This document shows, one piece after another, positions 3,120-18,528 of a stretch of 32,000 bases of DNA. Each line of letters begins with the position of its first letter. The first letter of the stretch is position 1. The DNA lies in assembly GCA_000091165.1 (NCBI GenBank), contig FP565575.1:930001-962000 (forward strand), read 5' to 3'. The stretch comes from Candidatus Methylomirabilis oxygeniifera (GTDB lineage: Bacteria > Methylomirabilota > Methylomirabilia > Methylomirabilales > Methylomirabilaceae). The notes beneath the pieces were generated by a model. The model was not told where the DNA came from, did no database searches, and saw nothing but the letters and a program-made list of their open reading frames with translations. The position numbers and the translations under genes were made by a program.

Positions 3120-6100
3120 GACCCCGGAAATGAATGTACAGAAGCATCGGATACACACACTATTGCCGGACCCGTTGTGGTGTGGTTGTTTGTCGTTGGG
3201 TGTATGCGAAGCTTGGTGGCCTCGTTGACCAGGAATGGGATCAGTGCGCCTCCTCCTACTACAAGCGCGTCTACCACCCCGAGAGGCGCAATACTCAGGA
3301 GACTGCGGAGTCCTGGAACTGTCAGTGTAGCGGCCTGAACGGCAAACGATCCGCCCAGTGCAAGCTGGAGGTATCGGTTGGGGGGGAGCGGAGTCCGGGC
3401 AGCCGGCGGATCATAGATCGTGTGTCTTTCTGAGCGGCAACTGAGGGCGTGCAGGAGCTGTCCCAGGACCAGGGTCACAAAGGCCATCGTGCCGGCCTGC
3501 GGCCCCATGCCGTATCTCAGGATACCATAGGTATAGGCCCCCATCGAACCCGCCGAGATCACGCCGGCCTCGTACGCGATCCTCTTCAGGTCGGCAGTGC
3601 TCAGGATCGGTTCGTGTGGATTTCGGGGTGGGCGACTCAACACATCAGGTTCGGGTGGCTCAAGGGCCAGCGCCAAGCCCGGGAAGATATCCGAGATCAG
3701 ATTGATCCACAAAAGCTGCATGGGGTTGAGCGGTTCACCCAGTCCCACCGTCATAGCGGCCGACATGACGAGCAGCTCGCTCGCGTTTGTGGCCAGGAGA
3801 AAATGGACCGCCTTTCTGATGTTGTTGTAGGTCGTCCTGCCATGGCTGATGGCCACGATCATCGTTTCAAGATCGTCGTTTTCCAGCACCACATCCGCCA
3901 CCTCCCTGGCGACATCCGTACCGGCGTGGCCCATCGCGATCCCGATATCTGCGGCCTTCAGAGCCGGTCCATCATTGATGCCGTCGCCGGTCATGGCCAC
4001 GACCCTGCCGGCTCGCTGAAGCGCCTGGACGATCTGCAGCTTATTGGCAGGGCTGACCCTCGAAAACACGTGGACCTTTTTTGAGAGCGCCTCCATGACC
4101 TGAGGATCCACGGTTGCCAAGTGGGTCGAGTCCAGGATTTCAAGCGACCCATTTCCGCCCAGATTCAACGACTTGCCGATGGCGTAGGCCGTAGGACTCT
4201 GATCTCCGGTGATCATGACGGTATCGATCCCAGCCTGGTGAAACCGGGGAATCAACTCCTTGACGCCGTTCCTGATCGGATCAGCCATGCCGACCAACCC
4301 GAGCCAGATCAATCCATGTCCGACATGACCCCCGTCCTCCGCATGATCCTGGTGGGCGTATGCGAGCCCCAGGACTCTAAGTGAATCACCGGCCATGCGT
4401 TCATTTTCGTTCTCAATCGTTGCGCGTATCTCCTCGGAGAGGGGAATCTGTTGACCGTCTTTCAGGTACCACTGACACATGTCCAGGACCTCTCGAGGAC
4501 TGCCCTTGACAGCCAACAGTCGTGACGGGGAATCCGACCGGTGCAGCGTCGTCATGTAGTTCCGATTTTCGGAGCGTTGGGTCATCTTGAGCAGCGGATA
4601 CCGCTCCCGGATTTTCAGGACATCGATCCCTGCGCTGACGGCCAGATGGACCAGGGCGTTCTCTGTGGGCGAGCCTGTCAGCACGCACTCCTCCCCGAGA
4701 TGACTCACGACGGTTTCGTTGCACAGCACCGAGGCATGAACCAATCTCAGGAGCTCGTCGCAGGTGAATGGGTTGATCGTGACCTCTCCTGAGACGAACC
4801 TCCCCTCTGTGATCGTGATAGTCTGCAGACTTGTGTGGATGGCCACCACCGACATCCGGTTCATGGTGATGGTTCCGGTCTTGTCCAGACAGATCGTCTG
4901 GACCGATCCGAGGGTCTCTACGGCATGAAGATATCGGATCAGGACATGATGTCGCCTCATGCTCCTGATTCCCAACGCCAGCGTCGTCGTGGCGACAGTG
5001 GACAGGCCTTCAGGGACGGCCGCCACTGCCAGTGAAATGGCGATCTTGAACATCCGGACAAAGCCGTATCCGCGGAGCAGGCCGATGACAAAGACCAGCA
5101 CGCAGGCCAAACCGCCAAGCCACACCGAGTGGTTGCCGATCTGTCTGAGCCGCCTTTCCATGGGGGTCTCGGGCGGTACCGCCTCGCCGGTCAGGATCTG
5201 AATCTGTCCCATCTCTGTCACGCCCCCGGTGGCGACCACCACAGCCAGCCCTTCGCCTCCCGTCACCAGGGTTCCCATATAGACCATGTTGATCCGATCG
5301 GCCAGCGGGACGGCGGCCGCAAGGATCGATTCCGCGGTCTTGAGCGCAGGCATATTCTCGCCGGTCAGCGCCGACTCATCCACATACAGATATCGGCTGT
5401 CCACGATCCTGGCATCCGCCGCAACGTAGCTTCCGGGTCTGAGTGCCAGGAGATCCCCAATGACGACCTCCTCTGCGCGAATGGTGAGGAGAGCGCCGTC
5501 CCGGATGACTGCCGCAGAAGGGGTCACCAGTTTCTTGAGGGAATGGAGCGTGTCCTCAGTTTGACTTTCGGTGACATACCCAATCGTGGCATTGATGCAT
5601 ACGACTCCAAGGATGACCAGCGCATCGGCAACCCCACCGGTCACAAACGAGAGCGCGGCGGCTGCCGCAAGGAGGGCGACAGGCAGCGAGGCAAACTGAT
5701 CGATCAGGATACCGAATCGTGATCGACGGAGCGCCTCAGGCAAGACATTCGGACCATATTGCGTGAGGCGTTCCCGCACTGATTCTTCAGATAGCCCTGA
5801 TCGTGTCGCACTCAGAATCGTAAGCGCCGAATCGATTTCGAGGGCGTGCCATGGGTGAACCGCCCGTCTTTCGACGGGAGACGTGGGAGAGGTGGCGGGT
5901 CTTGCCGTATGAGGGAGACGCTTACCGTTGAACGGCTGGTCGCTATACTCTGAAACGATACCCCTGATAAGGACGGTGACCGTCTTGGTGGTGTGGTCCG
6001 AATTGAAGACGATCAGGAGATTTCCGGTCAGGACGCTTGCCGAGGCATTCTTGATCCCCTTGACCTGATGGAGGCGGGACTCGAGGTATCCTTTGAGCAT

Positions 6101-7880: not shown

Positions 7881-9419
7881 CTATTCCTCGTCCTCGTCTT
7901 CGTCCTCATCGTCCGGAGAACCGATGCTCGGGTCCACGTACATGGCGAGCAACTGTCCGCCCTGTACCAGCGCCGGATCGGAGTGAGCGAAATGGGCCTG
8001 GGCATCGAGCAGAAACCATCCATTCCCGAGGATCTGGTGTGCATCGATGATCCCGGAGGATTCTTCATCGGTCGTGAGGGCGGGCGGGGCCGGCGGCGCA
8101 AAGAAGGCAGGGTCGTGTGCCGCGACCTCGATCAGTTGGCCACTGTTGGTGCTATACAACCAGATCTTTCCGAGCGGATCCTGCCTGCCGATATCCTCTT
8201 GCATCAGAAGGCGGCCGCGCCGGTCCATGGTGATATTATCGAGCATCTTGTGACCCTCGCTGCCGCTCAACAGAATCTCGATGGTTCCGCCGTGTTCCGG
8301 GTGTTCGATATCATTGAAGCGCAGTCTCCACAGTCGGCTGTTTGTCGAGAAGCTCGCAGTCGTCACAAAGTAGAAATCGTTCTCGTGGCCTGGTCGGGGG
8401 TCCCACACCCCGTCCTCGAGCCGCTGCATCCGGAAGACGTCGGCGGCGATAGCGGCGTCCTGAAGCTGTGTCTCGGTCAACCCGGAAACATCTCCGAAGC
8501 TGTGGAGGCTGAAGGTGCCTGACCCGACATAGTTGCCTCCGCTCCCGAGTCCGTCGGTGTTGCTTTCCTCGGTGACTGTGGTCCCGTTGACCGCCACCTT
8601 CATGCCGAACAGGCCGCCGTTCGTGAGCCCCGCGCGTTCCACAGGAGTACCGTGATTCGTCTTCATGCCGATATAGACATACAGCTCGCTTGGAACATTG
8701 GGCGGAATCGGGCTTGTGCTGGCATCGGCATCGTCCAGCCCGATGACGACGGTCTTTGACTGCCGATGCGGACTGGCGACCACGTTTTCGAACGCCATGC
8801 GTCCGAGACGCGGCAACTGCCAGGACTGACCCTTATGGGGCCCGGTGGCGATATGAGCCCACGCCGTTCCGTTGTTCGTCTCCTCGCCGTTGAGATAGAG
8901 GCGATCCCGTGTACCCTTCCCTCGGGCGAAGAACGCCTTCTGAGGCGCTAAGTCCGCCGAGCAGAAGCGATTCCAGGCGACCGTCCCTTGCGCGTATCGG
9001 CTGCTCACCGGATCCCAGGAGTAGACGTCGCTTGATGACGGTGTTTGATCCTCGCCCTTCAAGACCTCTAGTGTTTTCCGCTTGATCTCCCAGCGGGATA
9101 CGAACGCGCCCGGCGACCCATGGGCACGGACGACGCCCGCTGTTGCGCCCAGTTCGTGGTTCACCAATAGCGTGAATGTCCGGTGACCGCTCTTGAAGGC
9201 ACCCAGTCCATCCGGGATGCCTACCAGGGAATACCCGCCAATGGTGTCGCCGACGGTCAGCACCGAGATCGTCTCGACCCCAGGCATTGAGGGAAGGACA
9301 TACGGGGCTGTGGTTGTGCTCGGTCCGATGCTTTGCGCTGAAGCGACGCAGGCAGTCGTTGCCACGCATCCGAGAACCAACGCGGCTCGAGCAAGCTCTT
9401 TTCCAACCCTGTTCGACAT
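7881..9419 (-). CDS. Secreted PhoX-like (DUF839 beta-propeller) phosphatase, 512 aa
   Basis: Trimmed to the ATG at 9419 (AGGAGG upstream). Signal peptide MSNRVGKELARAALVLGCVATTACVASAQS. GIPDGLGAF, LLVNHEL, FCSA, NGEE and LPRLGRMAFEN resemble the PhoX/DUF839 family. The C-terminal tail is acidic (DDEDEDEDEE). Confidence 0.6.
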   Translation of the reverse strand: MSNRVGKELARAALVLGCVATTACVASAQSIGPSTTTAPYVLPSMPGVETISVLTVGDTIGGYSLVGIPDGLGAFKSGHRTFTLLVNHELGATAGVVRAHGSPGAFVSRWEIKRKTLEVLKGEDQTPSSSDVYSWDPVSSRYAQGTVAWNRFCSADLAPQKAFFARGKGTRDRLYLNGEETNNGTAWAHIATGPHKGQSWQLPRLGRMAFENVVASPHRQSKTVVIGLDDADASTSPIPPNVPSELYVYIGMKTNHGTPVERAGLTNGGLFGMKVAVNGTTVTEESNTDGLGSGGNYVGSGTFSLHSFGDVSGLTETQLQDAAIAADVFRMQRLEDGVWDPRPGHENDFYFVTTASFSTNSRLWRLRFNDIEHPEHGGTIEILLSGSEGHKMLDNITMDRRGRLLMQEDIGRQDPLGKIWLYSTNSGQLIEVAAHDPAFFAPPAPPALTTDEESSGIIDAHQILGNGWFLLDAQAHFAHSDPALVQGGQLLAMYVDPSIGSPDDEDEDEDEE

Positions 9420-9498
9420 GTGATCATACCTCCTATTGAGAAGTTGATGTCCACACCCCGATGACAACATGTAACACACATGCTGCGGAGTATGGCGT

Positions 9499-9693: not shown

Positions 9694-11526
9694 ATGAAAC
9701 ACGTTCAGTCTCTCGAACTACTTCATGCAAGCCTCCATATACGCGAACCCCTGGAGCTTCGTGAACGTCTGGATCGGATCATGCGGACCGCGCGGGATAT
9801 TTTAGGGCTACGACGCCTGACCCTGTTCCTCGCCGATCCTGAAGGGTTGTGTCTGCGTACAGTAGCCAGTACGGCCTTGAGCCCGGGATCACGGCCGATT
9901 CCGCTGACCGACTCGGAGAATCCCGTCGTACGGGCCTATAGTGCTCATGCGCCGGTGTTCTGGAATCCACAGATGCCGACTACCCGGGCGATTCGACTGC
10001 AGCCGCCTTATGATCACCCTGTCGGGCTACCCTCCGACGGGTTCCTCAACCTCCCACTCATTGTGCAGGGACGAGTGATCGGCGTTCTGGGTGTTGAGCA
10101 TCCGGAGGGGGGCTGGATCCTGGACCGTGAGACGATCCAACTGATGGAGTTGTTTGCCGCTCAGGCGGCGACGGCTATCGAACACGCCCGTCTCTATGAG
10201 GAGGCAAGACGGATAGCAGCAGAACTGCAACAAAAGGTCGAAGCCCTTGCGCAGGCCGACGCAGCGCTCGTGGAGTCGGTACGGCTCCGCGCCATGGGCC
10301 AGATGGCCTCCGGCGTGGCGCATGATTTTAATAATATTCTGAACTCGATCCTGGGGCAGGTGCAGCTCCTGCAGACGCGTTTCGCGCAGGGATCTGTCCA
10401 TGCGGCAACAATCAAGGAGACGCTGCGGCTGCTGGAAGCGGCGGCCCTCGATGGGGCTGAGATTGTCCGCAAACTCCGTGAATTCACACGACCTGCTGAG
10501 GAGGAGGCGTTTGTGCCGATGGCCCTCGATAAGGTGATCGAGCAAGTGCTGGACACGACCAGGCCTCGTTGGAAGGACCAGGCTGAGGCCAGCGGTCGTC
10601 GCTTTCGGATTGTGACTGAGTGTGCATCTGTTCCCCCTATTCTCGGAAATGCCTCGGAACTCCGGGCGGTCGTCACCAACCTGTTGTTCAATGCCTTGGA
10701 TGCGATGCCGCAGGGGGGAACTGTAACCATTACGCTACGACATGTTCAGAGGGGTGGGGAGACCGCTCAACGAGCGGAAGGATTGATCGTGAATGGCGAG
10801 TGGGGTGAGAAGAGACGTCGATCTGAACGTGGAGGAGTCGTCCTGTTTACGATGACGGATACTGGAGTGGGAATTCCTGACAGTGTCAAAGCGCGTATCT
10901 TTGACCCATTCTTTACGACGAAGGGTACACGGGGGACCGGACTTGGTCTCAGCATGGTTCACGGAATCGTTCGCCGCCACCGTGGTGAGATTCTGGTAGC
11001 CAGCGAGGAGAGGCGTGGCACAACTATCACGATCTCCCTGCCGATTGCTGTAGACATTCCAACGGTTGTCATGTCCGAGGCGACTGCGCTGCCGAGCGTA
11101 CCATACTGCGCACGGATTTTAGTCATCGATGATGATCCGCTTGGTGTGGACGTCCTGATGGCTTTCTTGCAGACGCTTGGCCATGAGGCCGTAGTGGCGA
11201 CGGGAGGACCGGAGGGTCTTCGACTGTTGGAGACGAACAAGTTCGATCTACTTCTGACCGATCTGGGTATGCCGGAGATGTCGGGGTGGGATGTGGCCCA
11301 GGCGGCCAAGACCCGTCTCCCCAGCCTCCCCGTTGTCCTCGTCACCGGATGGGGGGATCATATCGATCCGTCGAGACTCGCGGGGACCGGAGTTGACGTG
11401 GTGCTGACCAAGCCGTACACGCTCTCGGACCTTGGTACCGGATTGAGCAAGGCCTGGGGCGCGTCCACAGTAGAGCCGAGACGGGGTTACAACGTAGCGA
11501 GATGTAACGAAACGTGTGAGGTGTGA
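9694..11526 (+). CDS. GAF-domain hybrid sensor histidine kinase with C-terminal receiver, 610 aa
   Basis: H-box GVAHDFNNILNSILG. The HATPase_c N/G boxes are present (NLLFNALDAM, DTGVGI, GTGLGLSMV). Receiver: ILVIDDD...LLLTDLGMPEMSG...TKP. Confidence 0.9.
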   Translation: MKHVQSLELLHASLHIREPLELRERLDRIMRTARDILGLRRLTLFLADPEGLCLRTVASTALSPGSRPIPLTDSENPVVRAYSAHAPVFWNPQMPTTRAIRLQPPYDHPVGLPSDGFLNLPLIVQGRVIGVLGVEHPEGGWILDRETIQLMELFAAQAATAIEHARLYEEARRIAAELQQKVEALAQADAALVESVRLRAMGQMASGVAHDFNNILNSILGQVQLLQTRFAQGSVHAATIKETLRLLEAAALDGAEIVRKLREFTRPAEEEAFVPMALDKVIEQVLDTTRPRWKDQAEASGRRFRIVTECASVPPILGNASELRAVVTNLLFNALDAMPQGGTVTITLRHVQRGGETAQRAEGLIVNGEWGEKRRRSERGGVVLFTMTDTGVGIPDSVKARIFDPFFTTKGTRGTGLGLSMVHGIVRRHRGEILVASEERRGTTITISLPIAVDIPTVVMSEATALPSVPYCARILVIDDDPLGVDVLMAFLQTLGHEAVVATGGPEGLRLLETNKFDLLLTDLGMPEMSGWDVAQAAKTRLPSLPVVLVTGWGDHIDPSRLAGTGVDVVLTKPYTLSDLGTGLSKAWGASTVEPRRGYNVARCNETCEV

Positions 11527-12774: not shown

Positions 12775-14364
12775 TTACGAGCGGACAACGGCCTCTCGCG
12801 GCCAGTCCCGCTTCTCGGGTAGTGTGACAAACAGCGAGACCATGGTCCGCACGCCGATCGAGCGGATCAGGTTTACCATCAGGGCGAGGTAGCCGACCAA
12901 CAGAACCGCGCCGAAGCAGGCCGCCAGATACATCTCGCTGAGGTAGGAGGCATCACCAATGTACAGGGTCCGGCGCAACATCCCGTCGAGTCCGGCAAAC
13001 CCCATCGCCACCGACATGCCGATCCCCCCGAGCATCTGGCACCAGAAATGAATGTTGGACAGGACCATGCTCTTGATTTCGCGCTTGGTCACCAGCGGGA
13101 AGATCATATAGAGCGCGGCGAACAGGGTGCAGGAGAGCCCGACCAGGATTTGCATGTGGGCATGGGCGCCGATCACCCACTGGGTGTTGTGCAGGACGCG
13201 GTTCATCCCCAGGTCGGCCTGCAGGATGCCGGCCGGCACTCCAAGGCCGAATCCGACGATCCCGCCCAACAGGAACTTGAGCGGCATCGTCATCGTGAGG
13301 GGGCGCGCCTGCCAGAGCGTGGCCAGAGTGCAGAAGACGGCGATCCCGGAGGTCACCAGCTCGAAGGCGGTGATCAGCTCACCCGAGAGGAGTTTCATCC
13401 ACCCGGGCTGCGTCTGGTCTGAGAGCAGATGGTGGCTCCAGACGAACCAGGAGACCACCAGCTCCACGAAGAGGGCGGCGCGGGCGATGTGCTGCATGTA
13501 GAGCGGTCGACCCGTCAGCAGCATGGCCAGCAGGTACCAGGACCCCGCCACGTAGATCAGCACCAGCCCGTCGGCGATCAGGTCCAGCCCCCACCAGTAG
13601 ACATTCTTGTACAGTAGGGCGTCGAACCAGGTCGTGGGCAGCGCGACCCCGTTCAATCCGTACACGGCGTAGACCACGAAGATCAGGCAGATCCCTCCCA
13701 GCACGACGGCATCCAGGACCGTGTCGATCGTACCGCGAAAGATTGCGACAATCGGCAGGGGAACGTCGGGATGCTTGGTCTTCTGGCGGCCCCTGGCGAC
13801 GTGATAGAGGTTGACCCACCCATCGAGGCCGAGGCTGGAGACCAGCAAGGCGGAGACGGGCTTATGTTCCGGTTTTCGGTGGAACACCGTGGCGAAGAGG
13901 TTGAAGCAGAAGAGCAGGATCGCGACCATGATGGTCAACATGCCGACAGCGTACACCAGGAGGCTCACCGGCTTGGAGGCCGTCACCGGCAGCGGCCAGT
14001 AGTTGGTGTAGAGCGCCGAATGCAAGAAGAGGGCGCTGCTCACCCAGACGCTGAGCACCCCGGCAGCCATGAGCCGCCAGGTCCACTCAGCCGCCCGGAC
14101 GCTGTAGAGGTCCTTCTTAAGCAGCGTCGGGACCAGGAAGGAGAAGGCGCCCATGACGAGCATGAAGCTGTAGCCGAAAATCCCCACGATGGGGTGGGCG
14201 TTCAGTACGGCGTAAAAGTGCTCGGGCTCGAGCAGCGGCATGTTGGCCAGCGCGGTCCGCATCATCATCCCCTCCAGCGTGGCGAGTCCGTAGAAGAGCA
14301 GGGCGATGACGGCGAACCGCAGGGTCACGTGCTGCAGCGGCGTGAGATCGCGAAGCGACACCAT
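12775..14364 (-). CDS. Heme-copper oxidase superfamily subunit I with non-canonical active-site ligand set (NOR-like), 529 aa
   Basis: Trimmed to the ATG at 14364 (AGGAGG 6 nt upstream). About 12 or more TM helices. H57 (NAHPIVGIFG), H311-H312 (WSHHLL) and H401/H403 (GAHAHM) are present, but helix VI reads WWGLDLIADG instead of W.GHP/GHN. Confidence 0.85.
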   Translation of the reverse strand: MVSLRDLTPLQHVTLRFAVIALLFYGLATLEGMMMRTALANMPLLEPEHFYAVLNAHPIVGIFGYSFMLVMGAFSFLVPTLLKKDLYSVRAAEWTWRLMAAGVLSVWVSSALFLHSALYTNYWPLPVTASKPVSLLVYAVGMLTIMVAILLFCFNLFATVFHRKPEHKPVSALLVSSLGLDGWVNLYHVARGRQKTKHPDVPLPIVAIFRGTIDTVLDAVVLGGICLIFVVYAVYGLNGVALPTTWFDALLYKNVYWWGLDLIADGLVLIYVAGSWYLLAMLLTGRPLYMQHIARAALFVELVVSWFVWSHHLLSDQTQPGWMKLLSGELITAFELVTSGIAVFCTLATLWQARPLTMTMPLKFLLGGIVGFGLGVPAGILQADLGMNRVLHNTQWVIGAHAHMQILVGLSCTLFAALYMIFPLVTKREIKSMVLSNIHFWCQMLGGIGMSVAMGFAGLDGMLRRTLYIGDASYLSEMYLAACFGAVLLVGYLALMVNLIRSIGVRTMVSLFVTLPEKRDWPREAVVRS

Positions 14365-14374
14365 GATCGACCTC

Positions 14375-14932
14375 CTATCTCTGAGCGACCATCTGAGCTG
14401 ATGCGACCTCGATCGTGTGCCTGGCGTGCATCTGCCAAGTGTGGGGTCCGGCGTACTCCGTGGAGCGGATCGAGTACCGGCCGGGTTCGGAGAAGACCCA
14501 GACGAGGTCATTGTCATGACCCGGGACGACCTGCATCTGAAACTCCATCCGCCCGTTCTCGCGGAAGACGCCGAAGCCGTAGGTCAGGTCTTCGGACCGG
14601 ACCCGGAAGCGCACGAGTTCCCCCTGTGTGATCCTGATGCCTTCGTCGGGGAGGTGAAACTGATGGTCTTGGACGGTGACGGCGATGTCCCGGTCTGGAG
14701 TCAGACGGGCACGCTGCAATTCCCACCGGACCCACGGGACCTGCCAGGCGGTCAGCAGGTGGAAGGCGATCGACACGCTCACCAGGCAGCCGATCCACCC
14801 ATAGAACGGCATCTTCGCCATCCACGACGACTGTCGCCCAGACGTCAATCCGCGTACATAGCCCCACATCATCGAGAGCACGGTCATCACCATGACCGAG
14901 TAAAAGCCTTTCACGAGCAGTGCGAGCGGCAT
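14375..14932 (-). CDS. HCO subunit II-like cupredoxin protein lacking CuA ligands, 185 aa
   Basis: Trimmed to the ATG at 14932 (AAGGAGGTG upstream). Two N-terminal TM helices. SEDLTYGF replaces DVIHSF, and RSTEYAGPHTWQM replaces C.E.CG..H..M. There is no CxxCH. Confidence 0.7.
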   Translation of the reverse strand: MPLALLVKGFYSVMVMTVLSMMWGYVRGLTSGRQSSWMAKMPFYGWIGCLVSVSIAFHLLTAWQVPWVRWELQRARLTPDRDIAVTVQDHQFHLPDEGIRITQGELVRFRVRSEDLTYGFGVFRENGRMEFQMQVVPGHDNDLVWVFSEPGRYSIRSTEYAGPHTWQMHARHTIEVASAQMVAQR

Positions 14933-15011
14933 TGGCACACCTCCTTTCCCTTCATTTCCGGTGCACACCCTGGTAGCGTCAAGCCCCAAAGTCTCTCTTA
15001 TGACTAATGGA

Positions 15012-15065
15012 AGCATAGTCGGGGAATGTTGCCGTCAAATGAAGGAGTCGTGACGAAGAGGTAAA
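15012..15065 (-). promoter_or_regulatory. Phased direct-repeat promoter (Pho-box-like) of the HCO operon
   Basis: Minus strand: TTTAC (15065-15061), GTCAC (15054-15050), TTCAT (15043-15039), GCAAC (15032-15028), a 10-bp gap, then TATGCT (15017-15012). Confidence 0.5.
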
Positions 15066-15093
15066 TTCGAGACTTTTTCGGCGAGAGGCGTAG

Positions 15094-15157
15094 GTCGGGT
15101 TAGCGTCGCGTAACCCGACAACCCGGCCCCACTCCGTATCCCTCTTTGCGCAAGAGG
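15094..15157. repeat. Two REP-like hairpins ('GTCGGGTTA..TAACCCGAC' type and 'CCTCTT..AAGAGG' type)
   Basis: 9-bp stem GTCGGGTTA / TAACCCGAC (15094-15119, 8-nt loop), then CCTCTT-tgcgc-AAGAGG (about 15141-15157). They account for the spurious ORF 15035..15244. Confidence 0.5.
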
Positions 15158-15325
15158 AGGCCAGGGAGGAAATTCTGTGGAGTTGAGAACTGATCGTTGG
15201 GTATTTCTCGACGATGGCGTATCTCCGATGAGGCTATCTTGCATTTGCTCCGCCCTTTAGGTACAGTCATAGAATGATTGCTTGAGAGACCGATGCAATG
15301 AAGAGAATGCCCGAAGGAGTCTGAG

Positions 15326-15658
15326 ATGGAGGCTGAACTTCTGCAGCGCGAACCGAGGCTTGCCGAGATCGTGCGTCGGCTGATCGAGGCTTGCCGACCC
15401 GAGCGTATCTATCTTTTCGGATCGAAAGCACGCGGCGAAGCCGGACCGGATAGTGACTACGACATTATGGTGATCGTCTCCGACTCTTCCGAGCCGTCGT
15501 ACCGACGGGCACAGCACGCCTACCTCGCGCTTCGTGGAATCAATACGGCCGTCGATGTGCTCGTCTGGACACGCGAGGCTTTTGACCGCCGCCTGCACCT
15601 GCGAGCGTCGTTTCCGTCGACCATCATGCGTGAAGGGAAGCTGCTGTATGCCGCGTGA
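15326..15658 (+). CDS. Minimal nucleotidyltransferase (MNT) antitoxin-type protein, 110 aa
   Basis: LFGSKARGEAGPDSDYDIMVIV (the GS..G...D.D pol-beta-type NTase motif). SD GAAGGAG upstream. Confidence 0.85.
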   Translation: MEAELLQREPRLAEIVRRLIEACRPERIYLFGSKARGEAGPDSDYDIMVIVSDSSEPSYRRAQHAYLALRGINTAVDVLVWTREAFDRRLHLRASFPSTIMREGKLLYAA

Positions 15659-16061
15659 TGCGCAGCAAATCGAAGATACCCGGGCGTGGCTCACGAAGGC
15701 GGCGCTCGACTTACGGGCCGGCGAGGGAGATCTGACCTTGGAACCCCCGATTCCAGAAGACGCGATGTTCCATGCCCAGCAGGCGGCGGAGAAGGTCCTG
15801 AAGGCTTTTCTGGCCTGGTACGATGAACCGTTTCGGAAGACGCACGATCTTCGAGAGTTGGGTAGACAGTGCGTGCGTATAGACCCAGCGCTCGATACCG
15901 CCTGCTCGAAAGCTGAGGCGCTTACTCCCTTTGCCTGGCAGTTCCGCTATCCGGAAGAGCCGTCAGCGCCAAGTATCCAAGAGGCAAAGGAGGCCCTCGC
16001 GCTCGCTCGTGAAGTCTACGAGACTATCCTCGGCCGCTTACCCGAGGAGGTGCGACCATGA
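15648..16061 (+). CDS. HEPN-domain protein (toxin partner of MNT), 137 aa
   Basis: Trimmed to the ATG at 15648, which overlaps the MNT stop by 11 nt. It carries a helical HEPN signature, FRKTHDLRELG. Confidence 0.8.
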   Translation: MPRDAQQIEDTRAWLTKAALDLRAGEGDLTLEPPIPEDAMFHAQQAAEKVLKAFLAWYDEPFRKTHDLRELGRQCVRIDPALDTACSKAEALTPFAWQFRYPEEPSAPSIQEAKEALALAREVYETILGRLPEEVRP

Positions 16062-16485: not shown

Positions 16486-16941
16486 TCACACCGGCTTCAA
16501 CTTCACCGACGAGGGGGAAGATTGCTCTTGATCGACAAGCCATGCGCGAAGCGTGGCGTGGATCTCATCGCGAACGCGACGGAACTTCTTCAGTTTGTCT
16601 TCATCTGTGCCGGCAGCCTGAGAAGGATCGTCGAAGCTCCAGTGGATGCGGGTCGTTCCGCCTGGGAACATCGGGCATCGTTCGTTGGCGTTGTCGCAGA
16701 CCGTGATCACGTAGTCCCATGGCTGGCTGAGGAATGCGTCGATGGCCTTGGAGGTATGCCCGCTCAGATCGATGGCAACCTCGCCCATAGCCCGAATCGC
16801 GAGCGGGTGGACGCGCGATGCTTCGGTCCCGGCGCTTGCCACATCAAAACGCTCGCCAGCGAGCGCGCGAAGGAGACCTTCGGCCATCTGGCTCCGCGCC
16901 GAGTTGTGTGTGCAAAGAAACAGGACTCGCAGTGTGGTCAT
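16486..16941 (-). CDS. arsC: Arsenate reductase, LMW-PTPase/thioredoxin-coupled type, 151 aa
   Basis: Trimmed to the ATG at 16941 (GAGGGGAG upstream). P-loop VLFLCTHNSARSQMAEG, plus downstream Cys in VCDNANERCP. Confidence 0.85.
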   Translation of the reverse strand: MTTLRVLFLCTHNSARSQMAEGLLRALAGERFDVASAGTEASRVHPLAIRAMGEVAIDLSGHTSKAIDAFLSQPWDYVITVCDNANERCPMFPGGTTRIHWSFDDPSQAAGTDEDKLKKFRRVRDEIHATLRAWLVDQEQSSPSSVKLKPV

Positions 16942-17036
16942 ATAGCTCCCCTCAGCGTGTACGCTGACCATAGATTGCCGGATAACACCCGGAAGACATC
17001 GACGCTATCGCGAAGCAGAGATTGTGCTGAACATGG

Positions 17037-18146
17037 TCACGTCTGTCGGCCGATTGGTGTTCCGGCTGATTCGACGACCGGGACCGCCGTGGGCTCGGTA
17101 AACCAATGACGTGTGCGATTACAGATCGAGCACACCGAGAGCATGACCGGCACCTCGACGAGGACCCCGACCACCGTGGCCAATGTCGCGCCGGAGGTGA
17201 GGCCGAAGAGCGAGATGGCGGTGGCGACGGCCAGCTCGAAAAAGTTGCTGGCGCCGATCAGCGCGCCAGGAGCCGCGACCGAGTGTGGGACACGGAGCCG
17301 CCACGCCAACCCATACGCCAACCCTGAGTTGAAGTAGACCTGGATAAGCAGAGGGATGGCGATGAGCACGATGTGCGAGAGCTTACCCAGGATCACCTCC
17401 CCCTGGAAGGCGAAGATGATGACGAGGGTGGCCAGGAGGGCCACAATAGTGACCGGCTTGAGCCGCGCAAGAAAAACGCCCTCGAACCACGCGGGGCCGT
17501 GAGTCCGGAGGAGCGCCGCGCGAGAGGCAGCCCCGGCTACAAGAGGGATGACGATATAGAGCAGGACCGAGTAGAGCAGTACGTCGTACGGCACCGTGAT
17601 GTTCGAGACGCCCAGGAGAAAGATGACGATGGGCGCAAAGGCGAAGAGCATGATGAGGTCGTTCAACGCTACCTGGACCAGCGTGTAGGCTGGGTCGCCG
17701 TCGGTCAGATAGCTCCAGACGAAGACCATGGCCGTGCACGGGGCAGCCGCCAGGATGATGGTCCCGGCAAGGTACTGATCTCCGAGCGAGGGACCGATAA
17801 TCCCGGCAAAGAGGTGCTTGAAGAAGAGCCAGCCGAGGAAGGCCATGCTAAAAGGCTTGACCAACCAGTTGACGAACAGGGTGATCAGGATCCCCTTCGG
17901 TCGCCGCCCGACGTCCCTGATGGCAGAGAAGTCGATCCGCAGCATCATTGGGTAGATCATCAGCCAGATCAGGATCGCAACCGGGAGGTTGACGTGACTC
18001 ACCTCCATCCGGCTTAAGGCGCCAACCAGTCCGGGGCTGATCTTGCCGATGGCGATGCCCGTCACGATACAGAGCGCCACCCAGACAGAGAGGTAGCGCT
18101 CAAAGACGTTCAGCCGCGTTGCAACAGTGATATCCTGCGTGCTCAT
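17037..18146 (-). CDS. acr3: ACR3-family arsenite efflux permease, 369 aa
   Basis: About 10 TM helices. The N-terminus LNVFERYLSVWVALCIVTGIAIG is typical of ACR3. It lies between arsR and arsC. Confidence 0.9.
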   Translation of the reverse strand: MSTQDITVATRLNVFERYLSVWVALCIVTGIAIGKISPGLVGALSRMEVSHVNLPVAILIWLMIYPMMLRIDFSAIRDVGRRPKGILITLFVNWLVKPFSMAFLGWLFFKHLFAGIIGPSLGDQYLAGTIILAAAPCTAMVFVWSYLTDGDPAYTLVQVALNDLIMLFAFAPIVIFLLGVSNITVPYDVLLYSVLLYIVIPLVAGAASRAALLRTHGPAWFEGVFLARLKPVTIVALLATLVIIFAFQGEVILGKLSHIVLIAIPLLIQVYFNSGLAYGLAWRLRVPHSVAAPGALIGASNFFELAVATAISLFGLTSGATLATVVGVLVEVPVMLSVCSICNRTRHWFTEPTAVPVVESAGTPIGRQT

Positions 18147-18165
18147 AGTATCTTCCCACTATCCG

Positions 18166-18188
18166 AATCAAGATTCATTGATGAGTCA
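18166..18188 (-). promoter_or_regulatory. Second copy of the ArsR-type operator, between arsR and acr3
   Basis: AATCAAGATTCATTGATGAGTCA is near-identical to the site at 18539-18561. Core palindrome: ATCAA-N6-TTGAT. Confidence 0.45.
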
Positions 18189-18201
18189 GGCCAAAAAAAA
18201 G

Positions 18202-18528
18202 TCAATCACATCGTTTCAACGAAACGCGAAGCCCACGTCCTCTTGGCTTCAGCGAGCCAATAAACTGCTCCAGATCCTCGATCGCCTCCGGGTTCAACGA
18301 GTAGTACACCCATCGACCCTCCCGCCTGTCCGTTAGGAATCCGGCCTCCTTGAGCGTCTTGAGATGGAAGGAGAGCAGCGATTGGGTTGTCGCCAGCATG
18401 TCGGTCAAGTCGCAGACGCACTGCTCGCCGTCGCTCAGACGTTCGATGATCTGCAGGCGCGTTTCATCGGAGAGCGCGTGAAACCAACGCGCGGTACGCT
18501 TGAAATCTTTCGGCACCAGAAATCCCAT
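18202..18528 (-). CDS. arsR: ArsR/SmtB-family metalloregulator, 108 aa
   Basis: LSDETRLQIIERLSDGEQCVCDLTDML (HTH with a CVC As(III) site). Confidence 0.85.
   Translation of the reverse strand: MGFLVPKDFKRTARWFHALSDETRLQIIERLSDGEQCVCDLTDMLATTQSLLSFHLKTLKEAGFLTDRREGRWVYYSLNPEAIEDLEQFIGSLKPRGRGLRVSLKRCD

What the first reader, a model, noticed from the sequence alone, without database searches (positions are those of the whole stretch)
12775..14932. Heme-copper oxidase family enzyme with Leu-Asp in place of the helix-VI CuB histidine, and a CuA-less, heme-c-less subunit II
Subunit I (529 aa):
- It keeps the low-spin heme ligand (H57), the helix-VII HH pair (H311/H312) and the helix-X H-x-H (H401/H403).
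- The WWGLDLIADG segment (codons at 13570-13596; D261 = 13582-13584) replaces the W.GH(P/N) motif.
- The spacing to the HH pair is 50 residues, the same as from the CuB/FeB His to the HH pair in A-, C- and cNOR-type enzymes, which puts Asp261 or Leu260 at the ligand position.
- There is no Tyr four residues downstream, so no His-Tyr cross-link. Glutamates flank the site (E301, E329, E335).

Subunit II: the CuA ligands are replaced. DVIHSF reads DLTYGF, and C.E.CG..H..M reads S-T-E-Y-A-G-P-H-T-W-Q-M (Cys to Ser, Cys to Ala, His to Thr), while the Glu, Gly and Met are retained. There is no CxxCH.

Established knowledge: loss of the cross-linked Tyr and an altered third metal ligand characterise NO-reductase-type members. 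As I recall, one proposed family (gNOR) has a His-to-Asp ligand change.

Inference: this is a candidate non-canonical NO reductase or another N-oxide- or O2-handling enzyme with an unknown electron donor. It would apparently be under the phased-repeat (Pho-like) promoter.
Basis: partly seen in the sequence, partly recalled or inferred. Interest (0 to 1): 0.75.

Follow-up and report, generated by a model that had tools for sequence, protein, structure and literature searches.

The report
Known gNOR-type nitric oxide reductase operon
These two genes are the already described "gNOR" of the methane-oxidising bacterium Candidatus Methylomirabilis oxyfera: a respiratory-oxidase relative with an aspartate in place of one metal-binding histidine and no copper centre in its partner subunit, predicted but never shown to reduce nitric oxide.

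Summary
The motif WWGLDLIADG is invariant in 121 homologues from bacteria and in five archaeal ones.

Alignment to the closest solved relative (Thermus ba3, B-family) and to about 25 outgroup oxidases settles the Leu/Asp ambiguity:
- Asp261 takes the place of the helix-VI CuB histidine.
- The invariant Asp265 takes the place of the cross-linked tyrosine.
- Subunit II is a cupredoxin with the CuA ligands replaced (His to Tyr118, Cys to Ser157, Cys to Ala161, His to Thr165). These replacements hold across the family.

It is not new. Both proteins are identical to CBE68178.1 and CBE68179.1 of Ca. Methylomirabilis oxyfera. The literature lists that organism's gNOR as Damo_1118-1119, and the gene pair has been called norGH. 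The published family definition has three parts: Asp for an active-site His, Asp at the Tyr site, and a CuA-less cupredoxin subunit. All three are met.

Function remains a prediction: a quinol-dependent NO reductase. I found no biochemical test of any gNOR.

The "Pho-like phased-repeat promoter" is not supported. There are no direct repeats and no Pho box upstream.

Verdict: already known, low interest, and a correct reading by the first stage.

The parts
14375..14932 (-). gNOR subunit II (185 aa). It has two N-terminal hydrophobic segments and then a cupredoxin domain without CuA ligands. It is identical to CBE68179.1 / D5MEK2.
   Evidence: Exact-sequence look-up. Alignment to the Thermus ba3 CuA domain at E 4e-7 to 8e-5. 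Family-wide DxTYGF and RSTEY(A/S)GP motifs. Strong Shine-Dalgarno sequence before the ATG.
12775..14364 (-). gNOR subunit I (529 aa), the heme-copper oxidoreductase catalytic subunit. It is identical to CBE68178.1 / D5MEK1.
   Evidence: Pfam COX1 at 183.7 bits. Exact look-up. AlphaFold model with pLDDT 80.7 and pTM 0.84, and Foldseek TM 0.77 to bo3 and aa3 subunit I.
13567..13596 (-). Helix-VI motif W257-W-G-L-D261-L-I-A-D265-G266. D261 (13582-13584) replaces the CuB/FeB histidine. D265 (13570-13572) replaces the cross-linked tyrosine.
   Evidence: Profile alignment to ba3 (WWTGHPIAY). hmmalign against about 25 outgroup oxidases carrying FGHPVVY. Invariant in 121+5 homologues.
13429..13434 (-). 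H311-H312, the two retained helix-VII ligands of the non-heme metal.
   Evidence: Aligned to the HH pair of cbb3 and ba3. Invariant.
14194..14196 (-). H57, the helix-II ligand of the low-spin heme.
   Evidence: Invariant. Codon verified. The role is assigned by position in the family alignment.
13156..13164 (-). H401-A-H403 in helix X. H401 is the proximal ligand of the high-spin heme and H403 is the second ligand of the low-spin heme.
   Evidence: Aligned to G-HFH of ba3 and G-HVH of cbb3. Invariant.
13351..13464 (-). Conserved polar residues on helices VII and VIII: E301 (Asp in archaea), S305, S327, E329 (Gln in archaea), T332, E335 and T338. They are candidates for a proton path or second-sphere carboxylates.
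   Evidence: Conservation table. The role is inferred only.
14218..14274 (-). E31, R36 and H49 at the outer ends of helices I and II. H49 lies 8 residues before the heme-b ligand H57. They are candidate quinol-site residues.
   Evidence: Conservation and helix limits from the model. The analogy to E. coli bo3 (R71/D75/H98/Q101, with H98 8 residues before H106) is from my own knowledge and was not tested.
14429..14581 (-). Former CuA-ligand positions of subunit II: Y118 (His), S157 (Cys), E159, A161 (Cys), T165 (His) and M168 (Met retained).
   Evidence: Alignment to the ba3 CuA domain. Family alignment. Codons verified. The ba3 ligand numbering is from my own knowledge.
14933..15075 (-). Upstream region conserved among three Methylomirabilis genomes. 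It contains TTGACG-N15-TAT(G/C)CT and is the probable promoter. It has no repeats and no Pho box.
   Evidence: Alignment A3. Repeat scan. Consensus promoter scan found nothing. Pho-box search.

Best explanation
The region is the two-gene gNOR operon of Candidatus Methylomirabilis oxyfera. The gene pair is called norGH in one paper, and the literature gives the locus as Damo_1118-1119.

Subunit I is a 12-helix heme-copper oxidoreductase derived from B-family oxygen reductases. It keeps the low-spin heme (H57/H403) and the high-spin heme (H401).

The non-heme metal site is rebuilt. Two histidines remain (H311, H312). Asp261 stands where the third histidine should be, and Asp265 stands where the cross-linked tyrosine should be. 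Asp265 occupies the same i+4 position as the FeB-ligand glutamate of cNOR. A two-His, two-carboxylate site without a His-Tyr cofactor cannot carry out four-electron O2 reduction. It suits a non-heme iron, so the most likely reaction is 2 NO + 2 e- + 2 H+ -> N2O + H2O.

Subunit II is a membrane-anchored cupredoxin with no CuA and no heme c. Electrons therefore most likely enter from quinol directly in subunit I and pass through the low-spin heme.

Shown here: gene identity, family membership, ligand substitutions and their conservation. Inferred: Fe as the metal, NO as the substrate, quinol as the donor, and a detoxification role in M. oxyfera.
For: Identity:
- Exact sequence matches to CBE68178.1 and CBE68179.1 on the 2.75-Mb M. 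oxyfera contig.
- PMC6094997 names Damo_1118-1119 as the gNOR of this organism and Damo_0801-0802 as the sNOR.
- The known pairs DAMO_1889=CBE68939 and DAMO_2434=CBE69496 place CBE68178 at about DAMO_1113-1128, far from 0801.

Family definition in print:
- Asp in place of an active-site His, a cupredoxin subunit lacking CuA, a possible quinol donor, and relatedness to the B-family (PMC11214002).
- 'D' at the Tyr site, with members in Sulfurimonas and Persephonella (PMC8756737 Table A4).

Tests run here:
- D261 aligns with the ba3 CuB His and D265 with the cross-link Tyr.
- The same placement holds against about 25 outgroup oxidases.
- Helix VI has no His.
- The motif is invariant in bacteria and archaea.
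- ba3 is the best solved relative at 71.8 bits. A-type oxidases reach about 63 bits and cbb3 49 bits. No solved structure beyond ba3-, A-type and cbb3-type oxidases passes E<=1e-3.
- The family is discrete. Its two full-length 50%-identity representatives score 782 and 573 bits, and the next full-length protein scores 149 bits.
- The homologue list includes Persephonella, Sulfurimonas, Nitrosophilus, Nitrospirota and Nitrospinota.
- The CuA ligands are lost across the family.

Hints of a link to NO:
- In one locus the operon is followed by an Rrf2 regulator whose best specific hit is NsrR, a NifU-like protein and a YtfE-like hemerythrin.
- norGH was transcribed in a Methylomirabilis MAG from a bioreactor (PMC8906906).
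Against: - I found no activity, metal content or structure reported for any gNOR in the held library.
- The operon is not next to nir, nor or nos genes in any of the 17 loci examined.
- M. oxyfera makes little N2O and already has a qNOR, an sNOR and two NOD candidates, so a respiratory role is doubtful.
- The locus-tag to accession link is inferred from numbering, not read from the record.
- One preprint states that gNOR has a His-to-Glu heme-ligand change. That is not seen in this family.
Confidence: 0.72

Rival explanations
1. It is a quinol-oxidising oxygen reductase of the bo type. It would respire the residual O2 that M. oxyfera produces internally.
For: - Subunit II lacks CuA, as in E. 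coli bo3. The top Foldseek hits of the model are bo3 structures at TM 0.77, though they are barely better than aa3 hits.
[quoted passage not shown] 2011, as summarised in PMC3653055).
- My recollection, not verified, is that this gene pair was the one then annotated as the putative bo-type quinol oxidase.
Against: - The tyrosine required for O2 reduction is replaced by an invariant Asp, and one CuB histidine is replaced by Asp.
- No Tyr sits at the C-family position on helix VII; S305 lies 6 residues before H311.
- PMC11214002 argues that families lacking the Tyr do not catalyse O2 reduction.
- The later M. oxyfera literature re-labels the pair as gNOR.
Confidence: 0.08
2. It catalyses a different reaction at the rebuilt binuclear site. 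Candidates include NO dismutation, N2O reduction, a sulfide-tolerant N-oxide conversion, or sensing rather than respiration.
For: - The active site has no characterised precedent.
- There is no conserved nir/nos neighbourhood.
- gNORs are enriched in sulfidic habitats.
- M. oxyfera releases little N2O although it encodes three NORs.
- Other members of the superfamily have been proposed as NO dismutases and N2O reductases.
Against: [quoted passage not shown]
- Every characterised Tyr-less member of the superfamily is a NOR.
- The NOD candidates of M. oxyfera are different proteins, the qNOR-like DAMO_2434 and DAMO_2437.
Confidence: 0.15
3. It is a decaying or non-catalytic paralogue of an oxidase that has lost metal ligands.
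For: It has lost one CuB His, the Tyr and all the CuA ligands. M. oxyfera has several other enzymes of the superfamily.
Against: - The replacement residues are invariant from 94% down to 42% identity across bacteria and archaea.
- The subunit II-subunit I gene pair is kept in all 17 loci.
- The heme ligands and the Arg464/Arg465 pair are intact.
- The two genes are translationally coupled through strong ribosome-binding sites.
- The genes are transcribed.
Confidence: 0.03

Closest known systems
gNOR family of heme-copper oxidoreductases (Hemp & Gennis 2008; Sievert et al. 2008; Murali et al., PNAS 2024, PMC11214002)
   Same: Everything tested agrees. Asp stands for the active-site His and Asp sits at the Tyr site. 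The subunit is a CuA-less cupredoxin and the family has B-family affinity. Relatives occur in Sulfurimonas, Persephonella and archaea. The proteins are identical to the M. oxyfera pair that the literature names as gNOR.
   Different: Nothing found. The Methylomirabilis, Nitrospirota and archaeal operons have two genes. The Campylobacterota and Aquificota ones carry a third conserved gene of about 200 aa.
B-family oxygen reductase, Thermus thermophilus cytochrome ba3 (1EHK/1XME)
   Same: It is the closest solved relative by profile score. It shares the two-subunit layout with a cupredoxin subunit II, the WW-x-x-(ligand) helix-VI framework, the HH pair and the helix-X H-x-H.
   Different: ba3 has the helix-VI CuB His cross-linked to Tyr, a CuA centre and cytochrome c as donor. 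Here the helix-VI His and the Tyr are both Asp, and the CuA ligands are gone.
cNOR / qNOR (Pseudomonas NorBC 3O0R, Geobacillus qNOR 3AYF)
   Same: It shares the proposed reaction (NO to N2O), the lack of the Tyr cofactor, and a carboxylate at the i+4 position after the helix-VI ligand (the FeB-ligand Glu in cNOR, from my own knowledge; 'E' in Table A4).
   Different: cNOR and qNOR keep all three His ligands. [quoted passage not shown] No solved structure beyond ba3-, A-type and cbb3-type oxidases reached E<=1e-3 against the family profile.
E. coli cytochrome bo3 ubiquinol oxidase (A-family)
   Same: Its subunit II is a cupredoxin without CuA. The donor is quinol bound in subunit I near helices I and II. 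Here a His lies 8 residues before the heme-b ligand, as with bo3 H98 and H106 (my knowledge).
   Different: bo3 has the full three-His CuB site plus the His-Tyr cofactor, and it is a proton-pumping O2 reductase.
NO dismutase candidates of M. oxyfera (DAMO_2434 / DAMO_2437)
   Same: They come from the same organism and the same superfamily, and one metal-ligand His is also replaced.
   Different: The NOD candidates are qNOR-like single-subunit proteins with a His-to-Asn change. They are different genes in a different clade.

Membership tests
gNOR | Subunit I belongs to the heme-copper oxidoreductase superfamily (COX1 fold) | tested here: met
   Pfam COX1 at 183.7 bits. AlphaFold model with pTM 0.84, and Foldseek TM 0.77 to oxidase subunit I structures.
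gNOR | One active-site metal-ligand histidine is replaced by aspartate | tested here: met
   D261 aligns to the ba3 CuB His and to the GH of about 25 outgroup oxidases. Helix VI has no His. D261 is invariant.
gNOR | Asp at the position of the cross-linked tyrosine ('D' in Table A4 of PMC8756737) | tested here: met
   D265 aligns to the ba3 Tyr and to the Y of FGHPVVY. It is invariant. Definition.
gNOR | The other five canonical histidines are retained | tested here: met
   H57, H311, H312, H401 and H403 are invariant.
gNOR | The secondary subunit has a cupredoxin fold and lacks the CuA-binding residues | tested here: met
   It aligns to the ba3 CuA domain with His to Tyr, Cys to Ser and Cys to Ala. 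The changes are conserved in 8 family members.
gNOR | A distinct clade related to B-family oxygen reductases | tested here: inconclusive
   The score-based evidence agrees. ba3 is the best solved match and there is a sharp gap from 573 to 149 bits. No formal tree was built with curated reference sets.
gNOR | Identity with a published member (Damo_1118-1119 of Ca. M. oxyfera) | tested here: met
   The sequences are identical to CBE68178.1 and CBE68179.1 of M. oxyfera. The literature names Damo_1118-1119 as its gNOR. The tag-to-accession link is inferred from accession numbering.
gNOR | NO reductase activity, quinol as donor | not testable with these tools
   This is only predicted in the literature. 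I found no assay of any gNOR.
cNOR / qNOR | FeB ligated by three His plus Glu, with a C-family-related catalytic subunit | tested here: not met
   One His is missing. The profile matches only ba3-, A-type and cbb3-type oxidases among solved structures at E<=1e-3. Subunit II has no heme-c motif.
B-family O2 reductase (ba3 type) | His-Tyr cross-linked cofactor, three-His CuB site, CuA in subunit II | tested here: not met
   The helix-VI CuB His and the Tyr are both Asp. The CuA ligands are replaced.
bo3-type quinol oxidase (A-family) | CuA-less subunit II together with an intact three-His CuB site and the Tyr | tested here: not met
   The CuA-less subunit is met. The CuB His and the Tyr are not. 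NCBIfam CyoB scores 54.7 bits against a cut-off of 1020.
sNOR | Three His retained, Asn at the Tyr site, separate locus Damo_0801-0802 | tested here: not met
   The Tyr site is Asp, not Asn, and one His is lost. Accession numbering puts this locus near tag 1118, not 0801.

The most novel reading that the evidence does not exclude
The untested two-His, two-Asp site of gNOR might not be a simple NO-to-N2O reductase. In M. oxyfera, which dismutates NO and emits almost no N2O, it could do something else: an unrecognised N-oxide or O2-related reaction, or sulfide-tolerant NO scavenging coupled to the quinone pool through a helix-VIII carboxylate/threonine proton path (E329, T332, E335, T338). In that case the enzyme would be electrogenic, contrary to the 'non-electrogenic' label used in print.
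Probability: 0.15. Interest if true: 0.6.

Novelty: already known. Interest (0 to 1): 0.25.

Why it matters
gNOR is a described but biochemically untouched branch of the heme-copper superfamily. It is the only branch reported to have replaced a metal-ligand histidine. Showing what metal it binds and what it reduces would bear on three questions:
- how oxygen reductases were converted to NO reductases;
- N2O budgets in sulfidic habitats;
- the unusual nitrogen metabolism of M. oxyfera.

None of that is new with this window. The value here is confirmation, a residue-level assignment (D261 for the His, D265 for the Tyr), and a practical warning. [quoted passage not shown] No Pfam match more specific than COX1, and no NCBIfam model above its cut-off, was found for the family.

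Tried and rejected
1. Leu260 as the substitute for the His. A phmmer alignment to cbb3 put Leu260 on the His, but only by opening a one-residue gap to match Gly with Gly. I rejected it in favour of the ungapped WW-x-x-ligand register seen with ba3 and about 25 other oxidases.
2. Phased repeats or a Pho box upstream. There are no direct-repeat families in 14900-15330. The only Pho-box-like match in the window is at 5204 with 3 mismatches. The sigma-70 consensus scan found nothing.
3. Genomic context as a guide to function. Seventeen loci were examined and none has a conserved nir/nor/nos neighbour. The only hints are isolated ones: an Rrf2, NifU-like and hemerythrin set in L013, and a sigma-54 activator in L010.
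4. Primary sources I could not read. Wu et al. 2011, Murali et al. 2022 (quinol sites) and Sievert et al. 2008 are not held. The supplements of the PNAS paper are not held either.
5. Geometry from the AlphaFold model. The coordinates are not exposed, so I could not measure distances.
6. The genome-contig scan returned only 7 loci and not M. oxyfera itself. The exact-sequence look-up gave the identification instead.
7. The preprint claim of a His-to-Glu heme-ligand change in gNOR. It is not seen here, since all three heme-ligand His are invariant.
Full report
**What is in the sequence**

Two minus-strand genes fill the region. Subunit II runs from 14932 to 14375 (185 aa). Its ATG follows GGAAAGGAGGTG. 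Subunit I runs from 14364 to 12775 (529 aa). Its ATG lies 7 nt after a GGAGG that overlaps the stop codon of subunit II, so the two genes are translationally coupled. The mechanical ORF list also shows a 580-aa version starting at 14517. Homologues begin at the 529-aa start.

The motif WWGLDLIADG occupies 13567-13596. Subunit I is a clear COX1-family protein, at 183.7 bits against a cut-off of 34.8. Subunit II has no Pfam hit above threshold. It aligns to the CuA domain of Thermus ba3 subunit II with E-values from 4e-7 to 8e-5.

**Which residue replaces the histidine**

A single-sequence alignment to cbb3 (3mk7) put Leu260 opposite the CuB histidine, but only by inserting a gap so that Gly matched Gly.

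I built a profile from 29 family members and searched the Protein Data Bank with it. The best hits are Thermus ba3 oxidases, at 71.8 bits and E 5e-19. In that alignment WWGLDLIAD lies ungapped over WWTGHPIAY. The top chain is a ba3 sequence variant; I recall the wild type as WWTGHPIVY. Asp261 falls on the CuB histidine (H233 in my recollection of ba3 numbering) and Asp265 falls on the cross-linked tyrosine (Y237).

The same register appears when about 25 full-length outgroup oxidases from the 1.84-billion-protein representative library are aligned to the family HMM. Their FGHPVVY lies over GLDLIAD. Helix VI of the AlphaFold model spans residues 249-284 and contains no histidine. No tyrosine occupies the C-family position on helix VII either; Ser305 is there.

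So the enzyme has two histidines and two aspartates where oxygen reductases have three histidines and a tyrosine.

**Conservation**

- In 121 sequences down to 53% identity, WWGLDLIADG is essentially invariant: W258 and I263 each vary in one or two sequences. H57, HH311/312 and H401/H403 are invariant.
- After adding five archaeal homologues at 42-48% identity, D261, D265, E335, S305, T332, T338, H392 and R464/R465 remain invariant. E301 becomes Asp and E329 becomes Gln.
- In subunit II the former CuA ligands are Y118, S157, A161 and T165, and M168 is retained. The motifs D(L/V)TYGF and RSTEY(A/S)GP recur in all eight family members compared, archaea included.
- Subunit II has no CxxCH.

These are fixed family characters, not decay.

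**Identity**

An exact-sequence look-up shows that both proteins are CBE68178.1 (UniProt D5MEK1) and CBE68179.1 (D5MEK2) of Candidatus Methylomirabilis oxyfera, on its 2.75-Mb contig. The closest genome hit, at 89% identity, is another Methylomirabilis MAG with the same downstream nucleotidyltransferase gene.

Versantvoort et al. 2018 (PMC6094997) list the nitric oxide reductases of this organism as follows:
- qNOR: Damo_1889
- gNOR: Damo_1118-1119
- sNOR: Damo_0801-0802

Published tag and accession pairs (DAMO_1889 = CBE68939, DAMO_2434 = CBE69496) imply that CBE68178 lies near tag 1113-1128. That fits 1118 and excludes 0801. This last step is an inference from numbering.

**What the literature says gNOR is**

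- Murali, Hemp and co-workers (PMC11214002) describe gNOR as the first heme-copper family to have replaced an active-site histidine, with an aspartate.
- They place the family close to the B-family and find it mostly in sulfidic habitats.
- They mark its function as proposed, not demonstrated, and name M. oxyfera as a holder.
- Table A4 of PMC8756737, modified from Hemp & Gennis 2008, gives the diagnostic residue at the tyrosine site as D for gNOR. It lists Sulfurimonas, Sulfurovum and Persephonella as holders.
- PMC8906906 calls the genes norGH and reports them transcribed in a Methylomirabilis MAG.

My results match each point:
- The two Asp substitutions are present.
- Subunit II lacks CuA.
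- ba3 is the best solved relative, ahead of A-type oxidases (about 63 bits) and cbb3 (49 bits). No solved structure beyond ba3-, A-type and cbb3-type oxidases passes E<=1e-3.
- The homologue list includes Persephonella, Sulfurimonas, Nitrosophilus, Nitrospirota, Nitrospinota and archaea.
- The family is sharply bounded. Its two full-length representatives at 50% identity score 782 and 573 bits, and the next full-length protein scores 149 bits and carries the canonical GHPVVY.

**How it most likely works**

Shown here:
- An HCO fold is predicted with moderate to good confidence, at pLDDT 80.7, pTM 0.84 and TM 0.77 to bo3 and aa3.
- Both heme sites are intact.
- The non-heme metal site is made of H311, H312, D261 and probably D265.
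- There is no CuA and no heme c.

Inferred:
- Hard carboxylate ligands and the missing His-Tyr cofactor argue for a non-heme iron and against four-electron O2 reduction.
- D265 sits at the i+4 position, which in cNOR holds the FeB-ligand glutamate (my knowledge; 'E' in Table A4).
- The expected chemistry is therefore two-electron reduction of 2 NO to N2O.
- With no redox centre in subunit II, electrons should come from quinol bound in subunit I. E31, R36 and H49 are candidate residues at the outer ends of helices I and II. H49 lies 8 residues before the heme-b ligand, the same spacing as H98 and H106 in E. coli bo3 (my knowledge, untested).
- The conserved E329, T332, E335 and T338 along one face of helix VIII could form a proton path. 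The literature is undecided about such a path.

**Context**

The subunit II-subunit I pair is kept in all 17 loci examined. No nir, nor or nos genes are adjacent.

The only hints towards NO come from single loci:
- In L013 the operon is followed by an Rrf2 regulator, a NifU-like protein and a hemerythrin with weak YtfE similarity. The regulator's best specific match is NsrR, at 63.6 bits, well below the cut-off.
- In L010 a sigma-54 activator lies divergently upstream. It matches NorR among many other activators.

**The promoter claim**

- The 430 nt upstream hold no direct repeats, no consensus sigma-70 site and no Pho box.
- The proximal 140 nt or so are conserved among three Methylomirabilis genomes. 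They contain TTGACG-N15-TAT(G/C)CT.
- A PhoX-like gene lies about 3 kb downstream on the same strand. Nothing links it to this operon.

**Rivals**

- An O2-reducing bo-type quinol oxidase is the historical reading for M. oxyfera (plus my recollection of Wu et al. 2011). It is hard to reconcile with the loss of the tyrosine and one histidine.
- A different reaction at this unprecedented site cannot be excluded, because I found no report of an assay on any gNOR.
- A degenerate paralogue is excluded by the conservation.

**Verdict**

The object is already named in the literature for this very organism. What remains open is biochemical, not genomic.

Noticed in passing
L008:9705-10298, L009:5753-6343, L011:9673-10296, L012:9651-10247: In the Campylobacterota and Aquificota loci a third conserved gene follows gNOR subunit I directly. 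It encodes about 200 aa and has an apparent hydrophobic (possibly transmembrane) stretch in its C-terminal half. The four copies are 34-50% identical to one another. It has no NCBIfam match, and no Pfam family is on record for it. It is absent from the Methylomirabilis window and the other loci. It may be an extra subunit or an assembly factor.
   Followed up: partly
L013:5990-7234: In a gNOR locus whose subunit I (P0020) NCBI names as candidate division WOR-1 (74% identity to the query), the operon is followed on the same strand by three genes: an Rrf2 regulator (best specific match NsrR, below cut-off), a NifU-like protein and a hemerythrin-domain protein with weak YtfE/RIC similarity. This set is typical of nitrosative-stress responses.
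   Followed up: partly
L010:5655-7184 (minus strand): In a Nitrospinota genome a sigma-54-dependent activator lies divergently upstream of gNOR. Its AAA+ and HTH part matches NorR at 312 bits, but also NifA, NtrC and others. Its N-terminal 180 aa are unassigned.
   Followed up: partly
L008:10334-10957 and L014:9614-10222: A nitroreductase-family gene lies convergently next to gNOR in two unrelated genomes, Nitrosophilus alvini and a Nitrospirota MAG.
   Followed up: no
P0207 (472 aa) and P0210 (462 aa): These are two divergent HCO-like proteins just outside the family, at about 120 bits. P0207 reads IWWGLHSYVN, with a His at the D261 position and Asn at i+4, and it seems to lack one helix-X His. 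P0210 reads IWVALRFYLQ and has QH instead of HH. They may belong to further undescribed active-site variants.
   Followed up: no
window 12775-14932 and database entries: [quoted passage not shown] No NCBIfam model reaches its cut-off; the best is CtaD at 106.6 bits against 670.75. Pfam matches only the general COX1 model. Automated pipelines will therefore miscall these genes as oxidases.
   Followed up: yes
bioRxiv 10.1101/592808 versus window H57, H401, H403: A preprint states that gNOR has a His-to-Glu substitution of a heme ligand. In this family all three heme-ligand histidines are invariant, so the statement does not fit these sequences.
   Followed up: partly
window 15093-15128: An inverted repeat (GTCGGGTTA, 8 nt, TAACCCGAC, with a second overlapping pair) lies about 170 nt upstream of subunit II. 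It is conserved in L015 but not in L001. It could be a terminator or a structured element between the divergent nucleotidyltransferase/HEPN pair and the gNOR operon.
   Followed up: no
window 15326-16061 (+): A nucleotidyltransferase (PF01909) and a HEPN protein are encoded by overlapping genes. This is a typical HEPN/MNT toxin-antitoxin pair, divergent from gNOR. A nucleotidyltransferase gene, without a HEPN partner on record, sits at the same place in L015 and L016.
   Followed up: partly
window 16486-18528 (-): An arsenic-resistance-like cluster: an ArsR-family regulator (18202-18528), an SBF/ACR3-type permease (17037-18146) and a low-molecular-weight phosphatase of the ArsC type (16486-16971).
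   Followed up: partly
window 7881-9479 (-) and 9694-11526 (+): A secreted protein with a marginal PhoX match (26.6 bits) and an acidic C-terminal tail, and a GAF-HisKA-HATPase-receiver hybrid histidine kinase. The PhoX-like gene is syntenic with gNOR in L015, but the kinase is not.
   Followed up: partly
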